Shown here one piece after another: positions 13,560-35,490 of a DNA stretch of 64,000 nucleotides (its first letter is position 1; each line of letters begins with the position of its first letter). This DNA comes from Escherichia coli. Its GTDB lineage: Bacteria > Pseudomonadota > Gammaproteobacteria > Enterobacterales > Enterobacteriaceae. The stretch lies in assembly GCF_003018235.1 (NCBI RefSeq), contig NZ_CP027438.1; one strand, 5' to 3'. The position numbers were made by a program, and so were the translations under genes. A model generated the notes under the pieces. The model was not told where the DNA came from and made no database searches. It worked only from the letters and a program-made list of their open reading frames with translations.

Positions 13560-14700
13560 TAACCTGTAAGTATCCTGCATAATTGTGGTATTCATATTTA
13601 GAGATCATACGGCATAATCAATCTATCAACGAAGGAGATCGCTATGCATAAACCTGTTGTACTGGGCATCAGATCATCGCTGTGATTAAGTCAGTTGAAG
13701 CCAGACGAACCGCTAAAGATGTCTGCCGGAAGGTCGGTATCTCTGAAGCCACCTACTAAACAGATGTTTGCTGACCTGAGTCTGGAGAACCGGGCGCTGA
13801 AAGACGTTATCGAAAAAAGCATTAAAACAAGCCTTTAAGCGTGAGCTGGTCACTCATCTGATAACGACATTCGGACTCAGTATCCGTCAGGCCTGCCGGA
13901 GTCTGAACCTGAGCAGAACGGTTTACCATTACCGCTGTCAACGCCACGATTTTGACCGTCCTGAAAGGTTAGATAAGCACGTTCTACACGGCCTTTTGCC
14001 TGACTGGTTTCTGCGCACAGCAGTGTGATATTGAGGGAGCGCATGACCCTGGCAAACTGAGCTTCACCGGGACCGGTGGTAGCATGCTTATTGTTTACCC
14101 GGAAGACACTGGCTTTGTCGCTGTAGAGGAACATGGGCTTACCATGTTTTCCGATATAGCTACGGGTCGCTTCAAAATAGGTAAATGTGGATTCAGATTT
14201 CACAAACAGCAAGTGCATCAGGCGACTGGTGGCATCGTCAACATAGACAAGAGCTGTACAGGGTCGACCCCGGTTTTCAAACCAGTGGTGGTCACAGCCA
14301 TCAATTTGTATCAGCTCGCCAGCACAAGGCCGCGGTAATGAGGCTGATGAATTTTAGGTGCGCGCTGTCCGCGTGGGGCCAAAATCACGGTATTGCTCCC
14401 TGATTATACTGAGTGCCTGATCTGTCAGTGACGCTGGCAACAGACGGTTACCAGTGCGGCCACGACTCTGGTTGTTCATGCCAAGCGGTCCGAGTTGACG
14501 ATGGCGTTTCAGCAGTCGGCTGCAATGACGTGGTGTAATGCCGAGCATCTCCGCAGCCTGGCCAGGACGCAGATTGCGATCGATGACATCCTGAAGGATT
14601 TTGAGGCGGTTGATTTCTTTCACGTTAAACATCCCGGCGTCATGTATAGCCATAGAAAACTCCTCATCAGGAAAAGTGAGTCGTTGTCTAGACATACAGA
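13560..14700. mobile_element. Nested IS debris: IS3-family orfA fragment and a disrupted rve-type transposase
   Basis: Plus-strand IS3-type OrfA pieces (KDVCRKVGISEATY, LENRALKDVIEK) at about 13620-13870; minus-strand ORFs 13877-14218 and 14354-14695 give an HTH N-terminus and integrase-core fragment in different frames. Confidence 0.45.
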
Positions 14701-29732: not shown

Positions 29733-30020
29733 CTATCTCATTCTCTCACTGGCGAGATTATAAACGTTACTACGTTCTCGTTTTCCTACCGCAACAACCG
29801 CAATAATTAACATATCGTCAATCACCTGATAAACCAGACGAAATCCCGATGCACGTAGTTTAATTTTGTAGCAGTCCTTTAGCCCTCTTAGTTTTGCCGA
29901 CGGTATATGAGGATTTTCGCTGCATTTTTTTAGTTTTTTCACAAACTGTTGTTGAATGGTCTTATCCAGTTTCAGCCATTCCTTGAGCGCATCATCCCTG
30001 AATTTTACCGTATAAGTCAT
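29733..30020 (-). CDS. relE: RelE/ParE-family mRNA interferase toxin
   Basis: 95 aa with RelE motifs (LRGLKDCYKIKLRASGFRLVYQV...VVAVGKRERS); overlaps antitoxin stop. Confidence 0.8.
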   Translation of the reverse strand: MTYTVKFRDDALKEWLKLDKTIQQQFVKKLKKCSENPHIPSAKLRGLKDCYKIKLRASGFRLVYQVIDDMLIIAVVAVGKRERSNVYNLASERMR

Positions 30021-30268
30021 AAATAACTGTCCAGGTCCACATCATGCAGTGGCTGATTGCTGCGCTCAGTAACCAGTTTCACCAGTTCCTGGTCATCCAG
30101 AGCATCAAGCATCCTTTCATACAGTTCAGCAGGCACACAGTAGAATGCCGGCTGATTCCGGTTAAGAATGGCGACAGGGTAACCATCTCCGGCACTGACT
30201 GTAGCCATAGGATTTTTTTTCAGTTCACTGACACTTGCACTGGTGTCAGACAGAATGATGTTAGGCAT
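30017..30268 (-). CDS. relB: RelB antitoxin
   Basis: 83 aa from ATG 30268 (MPNIILSDTSASVSELKKNP...); 4-nt overlap with relE. Confidence 0.8.
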   Translation of the reverse strand: MPNIILSDTSASVSELKKNPMATVSAGDGYPVAILNRNQPAFYCVPAELYERMLDALDDQELVKLVTERSNQPLHDVDLDSYL

Positions 30269-31230
30269 AACGCACCTTTGAGACTGTTTAACAAGTCTTA
30301 ACGATATCCCTGAAACGACCACTTAACAAGTCTTTATTACTCACACTTTTGCAAATGCATTAAATGCTGCTTGTATTATTCTGATGCCGTGTCAGCGGCA
30401 TGGAAGGCGGTACTCCGTTGTTGCATATGATACCGGAGTAAAACCGCCGAAGCCCGGCGTAAGCCGGTACTGATTGACAGATTTCACCTTACCCCTCCAG
30501 CCCTGCCAGGCCATACCCGCGTTCAGCCATGACAGAACTTCTGTGCGCGGTCGGAGTGGTCCCGACAAGGGTTTACCCGAAGTCGGGGCGTATCTCCGCG
30601 TTAGCGGGCCGTCAGGGCCGCTTACGAGCGTGTACTGAGGACTTCCAGCCAGAACACTGACAGCAATGATGTTGTATAGTTACAACATTCATAATTAAAA
30701 GCGATGTTGTTCCCGCCCTTTGGGCGGGGGCGGCGGCGCTTTTCAGTTATGAGGAGGGGCATTGTGGTTTCAGTTCTGCGCGGACCGGGGTTTTTCCGGT
30801 GGTTGTATTTGAGTGTTGTAACTAAAATGACTCCGGTCGGGGCCCGCCGCTTGCGGTGGGAGGTGCATATCTGTCTGTCCACAGGACAGGCAGTGAACAG
30901 GTTTTCTTTTTAAATGAATGTAATTAAGTAGTTTAAAGGAGATATAAACAGGTGTTTAAAAGATACATTGCACCCTGTAAGACTGGCGGCTGGCGCTTTA
31001 TGACATGAACGGTTGTAACCTTATGGGGAAGTCCCTTGCAGTTAAATGTGGATAAGCAAAATTCCCCGTCGCTGAGGCGTATTTTGTATTAAAAACAGGA
31101 GGAACCGGATGCACCAGAAGGTGGATGGTGAGGTTGTTTTTTGTATGTGGTGCTGATTTTTTGTGCGCTGACGGGCTTCAGGCGTGCGAATGCCTCCGGC
31201 GCGTGCCGGATTATTCTGAGGAGGTCACTT

Positions 31231-32164: not shown

Positions 32165-32262
32165 CTCCCCGCATAGAGCAACAGCTTCTATGCAGTTTCT
32201 TGTTAGCCCCGGTAATCTTCTTCGTCGCCAAACATAGAAAGATTATCGGGGTTTTCGCTTTT
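32165..32262 (+). ncRNA. copA: CopA-like antisense RNA of the RepFIIA replicon (approximate bounds)
   Basis: Antisense to the repA1 leader; plus-strand hairpin CCCCGGTAATCTTC...GAAGATTATCGGGG followed by TTTTCGCTTTTCT. Confidence 0.45.
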
Positions 32263-32385: not shown

Positions 32386-32643
32386 TTACGAAGTCGCTCT
32401 GCGTTTCAGCTCTGATTCAATCAGTTTTTCAAGCATCTGCGCCTGGGTAATACCTTCCTCATCCGCCAGTTCACTCAGCCTGTCTTTTAACCGGGCCTGG
32501 ATAACCGCATGAAAAGCCTTATGAGTGTTGCTTCTGCGAGCCAGAGAAGCTCTTTGCCTCTCTCTGGCCGGAACAGGGTTACCTTTCCGGTATGCACGCT
32601 TGGTGCCTGATGAGGAAGTCACTGCATTTTCTATCTGCGACAT
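32386..32643 (-). CDS. copB: RepFIIA copy-number repressor RepA2/CopB
   Basis: 85-aa basic protein with MSQ.ENAVTSS N-terminus and EGITQAQ motif; position upstream of repA1. Confidence 0.7.
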
Positions 32644-32926
32644 CTCGCCTCCTCAATACTCGAACAGAGATCGTTTCGCGGAGGATACTACAGTTTTTTG
32701 AAATCAGCGACTTGAAAGTTGTAACGATGCTCAGTGTTGGCGCATAAATCATGTCTGATTACGATCGTTTAATGTGATTTTGATTATGAAATGACTGAAA
32801 AGCAGGAAATGCCTTAACCTGGATGCCGGCCCCGGGCGGGACCGGCTGTTTCTGGCATGTCGGGTGTTTGCCCCTGAAATACCTCACACTTCCGGAAAGC
32901 GGGGACTTCCGTCCCCGCCCGGCAGC

Positions 32927-33076
32927 TTACTTCCGTGCTTCGTAGGCCAGAGTTACCTGCACCACTGTATTTCCCCTGTGAATACTCAGCTCACATAACC
33001 GTTCCCTGAATATCAGTGAAAAACACAACACCGTGGCGCACACGGCAAGCAACCCGATAAGGGCATACTTCGTCAT
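32927..33076 (-). CDS. srnB: Hok/Gef-family membrane toxin (SrnB/PndA-like), 49 aa
   Basis: Manual translation MTKYALIGLLAVCATVLCFSLIFRERLCELSIHRGNTVVQVTLAYEARK; absent from the ORF track because it is under 60 aa. Confidence 0.8.
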   Translation of the reverse strand: MTKYALIGLLAVCATVLCFSLIFRERLCELSIHRGNTVVQVTLAYEARK

Positions 33077-33345
33077 AAACTTTGACCTCTCTGCAAGGAA
33101 GAGGCTACAATCAGTAGTGCAACGTACTTCATGCAGACCTCACGAGTTAATGGATTAACGAGTGGGGTCTTCGCATTTCTGGTACCTGCGTCTTGCCTGA
33201 ACCAGAAAGGCTCAGACACCCGCCGCGATAATACCACATTCCCTGTTGCTGACTATTACCCCCATTTACCTGTTTGGTTACAGAAACCTTTGTCATCGTG
33301 CCAGAAAATTAATAGTCAGCACACACAATCTGGCAATAGTTAAAT

Positions 33346-35490
33346 TTAATCAACGCCCCCCTTGTATTTATTATCGCCAGATAATGAAATCTCCTTAACT
33401 CTCCCTCCCTCAATATTTATGATCTTGTCAGTTGCACTAAGTACATCATCTTTATGGCTCACAATAATCTTAGTACAATCAAGAGACAATATTACCTGAT
33501 TAATTTCATATTCTGACTCTGCATCAAGATTACTGGTTGCTTCATCAAGTATTAATAACTTTGGTTTCCTGAATAAAGCTCTGGCTAACAGGATTTTCTG
33601 CTTCTGCCCTGCAGATAAAATATTTCCGGCATCATTGACAGGAGTGAAATACCCCATAGGAAGCCTTTCTATTATATCATGGATGCCAATTTTTTTTGTT
33701 AGTTCCAATAACTCAGGGGAGGGTGTCGAGTCATTGAATGTTATATTATAGATTATTGTTCCATTTAAAAGAATATCACCCTGTAAAACAGTGCCGGACA
33801 CACTTCTGATATCTTCTATTTTATTGTTTTTGTCACCATCTGTAAAGATAATATGACCACCACTCAATTCTACCAACCCCAAAATAGCATAAAGAAGAGA
33901 TGTCTTTCCCCCTCCAGATTTGCCTCTGAGAAGAACTGTCTCCCCAGGGTATATTTTTAGGTTAACGTCAGTTAAAACATTAACTTCTCTGCCATGATAT
34001 TTCATACTCAAATTAACGCACTCAATACCAACTGCTCCATGAGTATCTTTCCCGGATAAAGTGAAAGGTATCTTCTCATAATCTGCATCAGATATATCTG
34101 AAACTCTTGAAATATGTATGCGAATAACACCAAGCTGGATAAAGAAATCAATCATGTTAGTCACCCTTCTGCTGAACTGTTCTGAATATGCAATAAAAGC
34201 GACAAGCATACCAATAGTAAAGGATGAATTAATCACAAACAGTCCGCCAAAGTAAAGTATTGAGATATTTTTTACCGCCGAAAGGAGATTACTTGATGAT
34301 GAGAGCACAATATTTAATAAATCCATTTTTGTCTTTATGTTGATCCCTTCGATAAGGCTATTTTCATAAATACCTGCCGTTGTGTATTCCTGAAAGTAAA
34401 GCTTTATTGTTTGATTGTATTTGATTGACTCAATTAGTGCACTCTGTTGTCGGGCCTTAACTCTTATAGTGCCCAGATTCAGATATTTCAGAGACGAAAA
34501 ATAAAAAACCTTCAGTAAAAAATATAGCAACGATGAAAAGAACACAACAAACGTTAACACAGGGCTATAAGAACACATTATAATGAAGGCCCCTATAGCC
34601 ATAAAGAAATCCAACAAAACTTTTGTTAGCTGAGATATAACCACATTACGGATATATTCGAGAGAATTAACTCTGGATAAGATATCGCCAACACTCCTGG
34701 ATGAAAAATATTTCATTCTTAATGATATTAGACGATTATAAGCATTTGTTGCCCACTGAACGCTTATGTTTGCATTTAACCAAATAATAAGCCAGTCCCT
34801 TGTCGCCAGTATACCAATACTAACAGCATTAAGAAAAAGATAAAATATCACTGCGGTAACCAATAACTGATAGTCATCATTAACAATGACATTATCAATA
34901 ACCAGTTGAGTTATTTGCGGTATCGTAATATTGATAAGTTCAGCTAGAAAAATAAGAATAAACAGGCAGAAAAAAACATTTTTTCCTAAAAAAAACACAC
35001 TGAGAATGTAATTATATATTGTTTTATTTCTTTTCTTGTCCTTTCTTAGCTGGTAAAATATTGAACCGTCATTGTATACTTCTATTCCTACTCCGGTAAA
35101 AGACTCACTGATTTTCTGCAGCGACAAAACCTGAATGCCTTTATCCGGATCATGAACAACATACTTATTTCTCTTTCTTTTTACCAGAACAACAAAATGA
35201 TTCATATTCCAGTGAAGGATGCAAGGTAAACTTAAGCAGTTAAGCTCGTCAATGTTCAGACTGACAGCTCTTGGCATAATCCCCAAAGAACGTAATACTG
35301 ATACGATATCACTTACAGCCCACTCGTTTTTTTTGCTACTTAGTTTATCAAGCACATTCTCCAACAATCCCTCTTTCCCGTAATAACAAGCAAGCATTCT
35401 TATACATGTCAAAGCACAGTCTGAATTTTCATTCTGAAAATAAAAAGGAAATGCTCTTTTCACTTTAAAATTTAACTTATCAATAATCAT
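33346..35490 (-). CDS. Bacteriocin/microcin-type ABC exporter with N-terminal C39 peptidase domain (CvaB/MchF-like)
   Basis: C39 triad candidates (DCALTC, HFVVLVKR, HDP); six-TM domain; Walker A GKSGGGKTSL, signature LSAGQKQK, Walker B LLILDEATS; ATGA overlap with upstream MFP. Confidence 0.85.
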   Translation of the reverse strand: MIIDKLNFKVKRAFPFYFQNENSDCALTCIRMLACYYGKEGLLENVLDKLSSKKNEWAVSDIVSVLRSLGIMPRAVSLNIDELNCLSLPCILHWNMNHFVVLVKRKRNKYVVHDPDKGIQVLSLQKISESFTGVGIEVYNDGSIFYQLRKDKKRNKTIYNYILSVFFLGKNVFFCLFILIFLAELINITIPQITQLVIDNVIVNDDYQLLVTAVIFYLFLNAVSIGILATRDWLIIWLNANISVQWATNAYNRLISLRMKYFSSRSVGDILSRVNSLEYIRNVVISQLTKVLLDFFMAIGAFIIMCSYSPVLTFVVFFSSLLYFLLKVFYFSSLKYLNLGTIRVKARQQSALIESIKYNQTIKLYFQEYTTAGIYENSLIEGINIKTKMDLLNIVLSSSSNLLSAVKNISILYFGGLFVINSSFTIGMLVAFIAYSEQFSRRVTNMIDFFIQLGVIRIHISRVSDISDADYEKIPFTLSGKDTHGAVGIECVNLSMKYHGREVNVLTDVNLKIYPGETVLLRGKSGGGKTSLLYAILGLVELSGGHIIFTDGDKNNKIEDIRSVSGTVLQGDILLNGTIIYNITFNDSTPSPELLELTKKIGIHDIIERLPMGYFTPVNDAGNILSAGQKQKILLARALFRKPKLLILDEATSNLDAESEYEINQVILSLDCTKIIVSHKDDVLSATDKIINIEGGRVKEISLSGDNKYKGGVD

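What the first reader, a model, noticed from the sequence alone, without database searches (positions are those of the whole stretch)
32927..33076. Hok/SrnB-type toxin gene adjacent to the RepFIIA replicon, absent from the ORF track
Manual translation of the minus strand gives a 49-aa peptide with the Hok/Gef family signature. It lies just upstream of copB/repA1, as in F-like plasmids carrying srnB/pnd-type post-segregational killing loci. Small toxins like this are systematically missed by length thresholds.
Basis: partly seen in the sequence, partly recalled or inferred. Interest (0 to 1): 0.4.

Follow-up and report, generated by a model that had tools for sequence, protein, structure and literature searches.

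The report
Known srnB/srnC plasmid killer locus
The 49-codon gene is real and is an ordinary copy of the well-studied srnB/srnC "addiction" module of F-type plasmids, a small membrane toxin held in check by an antisense RNA, found next to the replication genes in about a third of complete E. coli genomes.

Summary
Observation confirmed and interpretation supported, but the feature is already known. ORF 32927..33076(-) encodes an intact 49-aa Hok/Gef toxin (Pfam 36.6 bits, cut-off 22). The whole ~400-nt locus is ~98% identical to srnB/srnC of plasmid F, in the same position ~280 nt upstream of copB. It is annotated "Hok/Gef family protein" in an identical RefSeq plasmid. All expected parts are present:
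- an mRNA promoter, with the 5' end at ~33221
- a 19-codon leader ORF (33073..33132) whose stop overlaps the toxin ATG
- a near-consensus antisense promoter (TTGACC-18-TACAAT, 33082..33111, +)
- a ~64-nt antisense RNA ending in a hairpin, complementary to the leader's ribosome-binding site and start codon
- long-range pairing between the mRNA 5' end and a 3' element (32862..32870), supported by compensatory changes in other alleles

Two small allele features: the leader is a separate 19-codon ORF, not in frame with the toxin as in F (~38% versus ~54% of plasmids), and one uncompensated G>A at 32868 weakens the 5'-3' helix. The locus occurs in 2,003 of 5,426 complete E. coli genomes. Interest is low. 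The neighbouring secretion cluster, with an uncharacterised double-glycine-leader protein, is more unusual.

The parts
33228..33255 (-). Predicted promoter of the toxin mRNA (TAGTCA-16-TATTAT with TG extension)
   Evidence: Consensus scan, 9/12 matches. The -10 is conserved in the compared alleles and the -35 in most of them; F and L003 diverge upstream of ~33250. It places the 5' end ~7 nt downstream, at ~33221.
33064..33221 (-). Toxin mRNA 5' leader (matched by the Rfam model named 'sok')
   Evidence: RF01794, 86.8 bits against a cut-off of 59, full model 1-157. The model matches the toxin-sense strand here and at F's flm locus, so it marks the mRNA leader and not the antisense gene itself.
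33213..33221 (-). tac-like 5' element GGGUGUCUG (mRNA nt 1-9)
   Evidence: Pairs with 32862..32870 in the minimum-energy fold of the 407-nt mRNA (z=-5.9). A compensatory G1-C to A1-U change occurs in allele L009. F's flm has a different sequence but the same pairing.
33135..33170 (-). Hairpin in which ACCCC (ucb/anti-SD-like, nt 52-58) sequesters the leader's Shine-Dalgarno GAGG (33138..33141). Its complement forms the antisense RNA's terminal hairpin.
   Evidence: Folds. The SD is almost fully paired in the full-length form.
33073..33132 (-). Leader (mok/srnB'-like) ORF: 19 codons, MKYVALLIVASSLQRGQSL, with its TGA overlapping the toxin ATG (ATGA)
   Evidence: Read from the sequence. The same form is found in L003, L004, L007 and L010 and in 1,022 of 2,702 plasmids. 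F has an in-frame form.
32927..33076 (-). Toxin gene, 49 aa, SrnB allele (S31)
   Evidence: Pfam HOK_GEF. 48 of 49 residues identical to F SrnB. Annotated as Hok/Gef family protein WP_106906997.1.
33082..33111 (+). Antisense RNA promoter TTGACC-18-TACAAT
   Evidence: Consensus scan, 10/12 matches. Both hexamers are conserved in all 10 compared alleles.
33117..33180 (+). Predicted SrnC-like antisense RNA (~64 nt): 5' tail, hairpin 33136..33169, tail UUCGCAUUUCU. Complementary to mRNA nt 42-105, which include the leader SD and AUG. The ends are inferred.
   Evidence: Folds (-21.9 kcal/mol). Position follows from the promoter. Expression was not tested.
33115..33125 (.). Polymorphic patch (mRNA nt 97-107) at the predicted antisense start/5' tail. 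It contains the 1-nt indel that sets the leader frame.
   Evidence: 9 of 12 alignment columns vary among 10 alleles. The sample was chosen for spread over this segment, so the clustering statistic is biased.
32897..32920 (-). G+C-rich 3' hairpin just after the stop codon. Inferred stop point for 3' trimming, by analogy with hok.
   Evidence: Present in all folds. The role is inferred from the published hok scheme (PMC9841398).
32862..32870 (-). fbi-like element CAAACACCC, with A at 32868 where nine other alleles have G
   Evidence: Pairs with nt 1-9. The A gives a C.A mismatch, with pair probability 0.93 versus 1.0 and MFE -173.9 versus -180.3 kcal/mol. The exact 71-mer is found in only 1 of 2,536 matching plasmids.
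32825..32846 (-). Distal GC hairpin (GCCGGUCCC-GCCC-GGGGCCGGC), a possible end of the full-length transcript; it has no U tail
   Evidence: Fold. Not flagged by the terminator scan.

Best explanation
This is an allele of the srnB/srnC locus of F-like plasmids, a hok-family type I toxin-antitoxin (post-segregational killing) module.

Proposed mechanism, with steps inferred from the R1 hok/sok and F srnB literature and mapped here onto the sequence:
1. A stable ~365-400-nt mRNA starts at ~33221 and folds shut, because its 5' end (tac, 33213..33221) pairs with a 3' element (fbi, 32862..32870). The leader Shine-Dalgarno is buried, so neither ribosomes nor the antisense RNA can bind.
2. Slow 3' trimming back to the GC hairpin (32897..32920) removes fbi. 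The 5' end re-pairs with the anti-SD box (nt 52-58), exposing the leader SD and AUG.
3. In plasmid-carrying cells an abundant, short-lived ~64-nt antisense RNA (33117..33180, +, from a near-consensus promoter) pairs across the leader SD and AUG. This blocks translation and triggers RNase III decay.
4. In cells that lose the plasmid the antisense RNA disappears first. Ribosomes then translate the 19-codon leader, reach the toxin start (the stop and start codons overlap, AUGA), and make the 49-aa SrnB, which damages the inner membrane and kills the cell.
For: - Toxin: full-length Pfam HOK_GEF match.
- Locus identity and position: ~98% nucleotide identity to F srnB/srnC over the whole locus, with identical placement upstream of copB.
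- RNA leader: passes the Rfam gathering score.
- Promoters: both are found where required; the antisense hexamers are conserved in all 10 alleles, the mRNA -10 in all and its -35 in most.
- Antisense RNA: the transcript ends in a hairpin and covers the leader SD and AUG.
- 5'-3' pairing: present in the minimum-energy fold (z=-5.9), with a compensatory G-C to A-U change in L009 and a co-varied sequence in F flm.
- Leader length: 19 codons ending on the toxin ATG, which matches the experimental finding that in R1 only the first 19 mok codons up to the hok start need translating (PMC9841398).
- Published function: srnB/srnC is described as a functional hok homologue, and SrnB is bacteriolytic with SrnC delaying killing (PMC4147584; PMC12390103).
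- Prevalence: 2,003 of 5,426 complete E. coli genomes carry it, and 2,185 of 2,216 copies are on plasmids.
Against: - There are no expression or phenotype data for this allele; every mechanistic step is transferred from F and R1.
- NCBIfam Hok models score below their cut-offs (32-34 bits against 73-89).
- The window has an uncompensated C.A mismatch in the tac/fbi helix.
- Thermodynamic refolding after 3' shortening is ambiguous: the open and closed forms are within 0.4 kcal/mol, and SD exposure rises only for some assumed 3' ends.
- The terminator scan did not flag the antisense terminator, because its tail is not U-rich enough.
- Transcript ends are predicted, not mapped.
Confidence: 0.9

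Rival explanations
1. A decaying or inactive srnB copy: recognisable by sequence, but no longer able to kill or to be regulated properly. The cause would be the leader frameshift relative to F, the fbi mutation at 32868, or the new upstream junction.
For: There is a 1-nt deletion relative to F in the leader. A private G>A weakens the 5'-3' helix by ~6 kcal/mol. Foreign DNA (an exporter cluster) begins ~30 nt upstream of the -35.
Against: The toxin ORF is intact. The 19-codon leader form is shared by ~38% of plasmids and so is not a lesion. Translation up to the toxin start is what matters in R1 (PMC9841398). Both promoters are intact and identical to those of most other alleles. The helix still forms with probability ~0.9.
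Confidence: 0.07
2. Same molecular device but a different main benefit: the locus is kept for phage or stress-related abortive killing, or for an effect on the adjacent replicon, and plasmid maintenance is not its main role.
For: The position directly upstream of copB, in the same orientation, is conserved in every plasmid examined. Other hok loci have been linked to phage biology (the title and abstract of PMC8621323, as listed).
Against: The fixed position is most simply explained by inheritance of the F-type backbone. The literature retrieved here describes srnB as a maintenance and killing locus (PMC4147584).
Confidence: 0.03
3. A chance small ORF with no function.
For: It is short (49 aa) and lies among many overlapping small ORFs.
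Against: Pfam E=3.5e-9 over the full profile. Rfam E=3e-19 for the leader. Thousands of plasmids carry it at 95-99% identity with the frame intact.
Confidence: 0.002

Closest known systems
srnB/srnC of E. coli plasmid F (NC_002483, toxin at 2926..3075, next to RepFIC)
   Same: The whole locus is ~98% identical, from about 30 nt upstream of the mRNA start to copB. The toxin is 48/49 residues identical. Both promoters, the antisense hairpin, the 5' and 3' pairing elements and the ~280-nt spacing to copB are the same.
   Different: In F the 19 leader codons are in frame with the toxin, giving a 68-aa reading frame. Here a 1-nt deletion makes the leader a separate ORF ending on the toxin ATG. The toxin has S31 where F has N31. 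There is a G>A in the fbi element (32868). The sequences upstream of ~33250 differ.
hok/sok of plasmid R1 and its F orthologue flm
   Same: Same architecture: Hok/Gef toxin, upstream leader ORF needed for toxin translation, antisense RNA across the leader start, 5'-3' fold-back pairing, and the same Rfam leader model (PMC9841398).
   Different: The mok/flmC leader is 70 codons and overlaps the whole toxin gene in another frame. That locus lies in the leading region and not by the replicon.
pndA/pndB of IncI plasmid R483
   Same: A hok-family member described together with srnB as a rifampicin-inducible killer (PMC4147584).
   Different: It is on a different plasmid group and has a separately named leader ORF (pndC). 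It was not examined at the DNA level here.

Membership tests
Hok/Gef toxin family (Pfam PF01848) | Sequence reaches the curated Pfam gathering score over the full domain | tested here: met
   36.6 bits against 22, profile positions 1-42 of 42, E=3.5e-9
Hok/Gef toxin family (NCBIfam models) | Reaches the cut-off of NF007279 (Hok subfamily) or NF007290 (HokA equivalog) | tested here: not met
   32.3 bits against 73 and 33.8 against 89. It is therefore not a Hok-proper or HokA equivalog, which is consistent with it being the SrnB branch. RefSeq still names it Hok/Gef family protein.
Hok/Gef toxin family | About 50 aa with an N-terminal hydrophobic helix and conserved cysteines | tested here: met
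   49 aa. The hydrophobic run ALIGLLAVCATVLCFSLIF and Cys12/Cys18/Cys28 are read directly from the translation. No transmembrane predictor was run.
hok-family type I TA locus | Leader ORF with its own SD upstream of the toxin, translated up to the toxin start | tested here: met
   GAGG-N5-ATG at mRNA nt 81-92, then 19 codons, with TGA overlapping the toxin ATG. Translation itself was not tested.
hok-family type I TA locus | Antisense RNA gene (promoter plus terminal hairpin) on the opposite strand, covering the leader's translation start | tested here: met
   TTGACC-18-TACAAT at 33082..33111. The ~64-nt transcript has a hairpin at 33136..33169 and is complementary to mRNA nt 42-105. This is sequence-level evidence only.
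hok-family type I TA locus | Long-range pairing of the mRNA 5' end (tac) with a 3' element (fbi) | tested here: met
   Predicted with P~0.93. A compensatory A1-U361 change occurs in L009. F flm has a co-varied helix. There is one uncompensated mismatch in this allele.
hok-family type I TA locus | After 3' trimming the 5' end re-pairs with the anti-SD box (tac/ucb), exposing the leader SD | tested here: inconclusive
   The tac/ucb fold is the minimum-energy structure for one assumed 3' end and lies within 0.4 kcal/mol for another. SD exposure rises only partly.
hok-family type I TA locus | Killing of plasmid-free cells, rifampicin induction, RNase III cleavage of the duplex | not testable with these tools
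   Known for F srnB from the literature (PMC4147584; PMC12390103).
srnB/srnC (F-type allele group) | High nucleotide identity to F srnB/srnC across the whole locus, and position directly upstream of the FII/FIC copB | tested here: met
   ~98% identity from window ~33250 to copB (alignment mean 96% including the non-homologous upstream columns). There is a 283-nt gap to copB here, versus 283 nt in F.
srnB/srnC (F-type allele group) | Leader in frame with the toxin (68-aa frame), as in F | tested here: not met
   A 1-nt deletion puts the leader in a different frame. This alternative form is itself common, in 1,022 of 2,702 plasmids.

The most novel reading that the evidence does not exclude
srnB/srnC alleles may fall into specificity groups. 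They split into two leader architectures (in-frame 68-aa versus a separate 19-codon ORF), and they differ mainly in an ~11-nt patch (33115..33125) where the antisense RNA's 5' tail meets its target. That variation could stop co-resident F-like plasmids from neutralising each other's killers. In that picture the two leader peptides are irrelevant by-products, and only ribosome transit to the toxin start is selected.
Probability: 0.2. Interest if true: 0.35.

Novelty: already known. Interest (0 to 1): 0.1.

Why it matters
It matters little beyond correct annotation. The window's plasmid carries a standard IncF addiction module beside its replicon, with a Phd/YefM-RelE pair on the other side. This helps explain why such plasmids persist without selection. 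The modest added value is the count showing that two leader-ORF architectures coexist at high frequency in nature. That agrees with the mutational evidence that only translation up to the toxin start is needed. The 2026 Hok survey explicitly left leader ORFs unanalysed.

Tried and rejected
- The primary paper on SrnB mRNA processing (PMC395037) is not held, so mapped transcript ends for F srnB could not be quoted.
- tblastn with SrnB, Hok and PndA probes found no second Hok-family ORF in the window.
- blastn of F's flm locus found no remnant in the window.
- NCBIfam gave only sub-threshold Hok hits.
- The Rfam 'sok' hit was first taken as the antisense gene. This was rejected because the model matches the toxin-sense strand both here and at F flm.
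- The terminator scan found only one hairpin-plus-T-run, inside the toxin ORF (33047..33029, -). That is as many as shuffled sequence gives (1 versus 0.8), so it is not treated as a feature.
- Sequencing error as the source of the leader deletion was rejected: it is not in a homopolymer, and it is shared by four independent plasmids and ~1,000 records.

Full report
**Observation.** The minus strand of 32927..33076 carries an ATG-initiated ORF of 49 codons, exactly as reported. Its product, MTKYALIGLLAVCATVLCFSLIFRERLCELSIHRGNTVVQVTLAYEARK, matches Pfam HOK_GEF over the full profile (36.6 bits, cut-off 22, E=3.5e-9). Directly downstream on the same strand lie CopB (32386..32643; PF10723, 108 bits), the tap leader peptide and an IncFII-family repA. 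CopA antisense RNA lies on the opposite strand (32173..32260; Rfam 81.3 bits). The observation and the stated context are therefore correct.

**Identity.** The 551 nt around the gene are 100% identical to E. coli O158:H23 plasmid NZ_CP076711.1, where the ORF is annotated "Hok/Gef family protein". Over a wider 18 kb the window and that record differ (99.4% identity, 49 gap openings), so the window is a close relative or a separate assembly. Plasmid F has the same arrangement: a 150-nt Hok/Gef gene, the classical srnB, 283 nt upstream of the RepFIC copB-like gene. A base-by-base alignment shows ~98% identity from window ~33250 to copB. The toxin differs from F SrnB at one residue (S31 versus N31). 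Reviews list srnB-srnC of F as a hok/sok homologue with matching gene arrangement, killing and regulation (PMC4147584). A 2025 study used SrnB as a bacteriolytic positive control and showed that SrnC, expressed from its own promoter, delays killing (PMC12390103).

**Anatomy.** The numbering below counts from the predicted mRNA start.
- **mRNA promoter.** A promoter-like site with an extended -10 (33255..33228, -) places the mRNA 5' end at ~33221. The Rfam model begins at that same position.
- **Leader ORF.** It has GAGG at nt 81-84 and AUG at nt 90 (33132). It runs 19 codons (MKYVALLIVASSLQRGQSL) and ends with a TGA that overlaps the toxin ATG at nt 146 (33076).
- **Antisense RNA.** On the plus strand, TTGACC-18-TACAAT (33082..33111; 10/12 matches) is the best promoter match in the region and is conserved in all ten alleles compared. 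A transcript starting at ~33117 would be ~64 nt, with a hairpin at 33136..33169 and the tail UUCGCAUUUCU. It would be complementary to mRNA nt 42-105, which include the leader SD and AUG.
- **Caveat on the Rfam hit.** The Rfam family named "sok" matched the toxin-sense strand here, and it did the same at F's flm locus. That hit is therefore evidence for the mRNA leader and not for the antisense gene.

**Fold-back pairing.** The 407-nt mRNA folds far better than shuffled controls (z=-5.9). In that fold nt 1-9 (GGGUGUCUG) pair with nt 352-360 (CAAACACCC, 32870..32862). Two comparisons support this helix:
- In F's more divergent flm locus, the 5' GGCGCUU pairs with AAGCGCC near the 3' end.
- In srnB allele L009 (CP101982.1), the first pair has changed from G-C to A-U on both sides. 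This also supports 33221 as the true 5' end.

This corresponds to the tac/fbi stem that keeps full-length hok mRNA closed (PMC9841398). When the 3' end is removed in silico, the 5' end re-pairs either with nt 52-58, the anti-SD box (the tac/ucb stem of the published model), or with a local hairpin. The two options lie within 0.4 kcal/mol of each other, and leader-SD exposure rises only partly. That step is consistent with the model but not demonstrated.

**Allele-specific points.**
- **Leader frame.** In F the 19 leader codons are in frame with the toxin, giving a 68-aa frame. The window has a 1-nt deletion that makes the leader a separate ORF. A frame-sensitive tblastn shows that both forms are common: 1,022 of 2,702 plasmids keep the window's frame and 1,468 keep F's. 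After codon 4 the two peptides are unrelated, so the peptide sequence is probably irrelevant. This agrees with the finding that in R1 only the first 19 mok codons, up to the hok start, must be translated (PMC9841398).
- **fbi substitution.** The window has A at 32868 where nine other alleles have G. This creates an uncompensated C.A mismatch in the tac/fbi helix. The pair probability falls from 1.0 to 0.93, and the fold is 6.4 kcal/mol less stable. The exact 71-mer occurs in only one of 2,536 matching plasmids. Its effect is unknown.
- **Variable patch.** Variation among the ten alleles concentrates at mRNA nt 97-107 (33125..33115), at the predicted antisense start. The alleles were chosen for spread over this very segment, so the statistic is biased. 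I treat this only as a lead.

**Prevalence and novelty.** The locus matches ~2,950 PLSDB plasmids and 2,003 of 5,426 complete E. coli genomes, with 2,185 copies on plasmids and 31 on chromosomes. It is routinely typed as an IncF addiction system (titles listed). The window has no second Hok-family gene. The finding is correct but already known, and current pipelines annotate it.

**Side observation.** Between finO (39226..39843, -) and srnB, the window carries a gene cluster that other F-like plasmids lack at this site. Their homology to the window starts only at ~33287.
- The cluster comprises a 191-aa ORF (37149..37724, -), an HlyD-like adaptor (35487..36770, -) and a C39-peptidase ABC exporter (33346..35490, -).
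- The 191-aa ORF begins MRKLTFNECNCIYGG|G, which resembles a double-glycine secretion leader, and it has no Pfam match.
- The protein occurs in only 2 of 5,426 E. coli genomes.
- It belongs to a family on ~199 plasmids, all annotated as hypothetical.
- A 77%-identical Klebsiella homologue keeps the same protein-HlyD-ABC order.

This looks like an uncharacterised secreted bacteriocin-like protein, and it is more unusual than the finding itself.

Noticed in passing
window 33346..37724 (minus strand): A bacteriocin-like secretion cluster lies between finO and srnB. It comprises a 191-aa ORF (37149..37724) starting MRKLTFNECNCIYGG|G (double-glycine-leader-like, no Pfam hit), an HlyD-like adaptor (35487..36770) and a C39-peptidase ABC exporter (33346..35490). 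The protein family is on ~199 plasmids, all annotated 'hypothetical', and in only 2 of 5,426 E. coli genomes. The protein-HlyD-ABC order is kept in a 77%-identical Klebsiella homologue. The mature part (~176 aa) is larger than classical class II microcins (size limit from my own knowledge). No immunity gene was identified. I did not check whether the published microcin surveys (PMC9746304, PMC12219008) include this family.
   Followed up: partly
window 35487..36770 (-) versus NZ_CP076711.1: The HlyD-like gene is one continuous 427-codon ORF in the window, but it is annotated as two CDS in the RefSeq record. The window and that record differ by 23 mismatches and 49 gap openings over 18 kb. This suggests indel errors in one of the assemblies, or a real pseudogene in the record.
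   Followed up: partly
window 33064..33221 (-) and L011 10808..10979 (+): Rfam RF01794, named 'sok antitoxin', matches the toxin-sense mRNA leader at both srnB and F flm, not the antisense strand. Automated annotation with this model would therefore put the antitoxin RNA on the wrong strand and give it the wrong length (157 versus ~64 nt).
   Followed up: yes
window 29733..30322 (-): A type II toxin-antitoxin pair (Phd/YefM antitoxin and RelE/ParE toxin, as annotated in the matching record) lies just beyond repA. The replicon is therefore flanked by two addiction modules.
   Followed up: no
window 33029..33047 (-): A terminator-like hairpin followed by a T-run (TGCCGTGTGCGCCACGGTG TTGTGTTTTT) lies inside the toxin ORF. 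It is no more than chance expectation for the region (1 found versus 0.8 expected).
   Followed up: no
window 38797..38981 (+), 40402..40524 (+), 13824..13967 (-): Further Rfam matches above the gathering score: AS-pc02 (antisense to pHK01_099), isrC (which falls inside the IS3-family ISEc31 transposase gene region) and isrN. The FinP/traJ 5' UTR at 44744..44853 marks the start of the transfer region.
   Followed up: no
window ~40381..42350: In the matching record an ISEc31 element sits beside traK, and the plasmid is typed non-mobilizable despite its F-type transfer genes. The transfer region may be disrupted.
   Followed up: no
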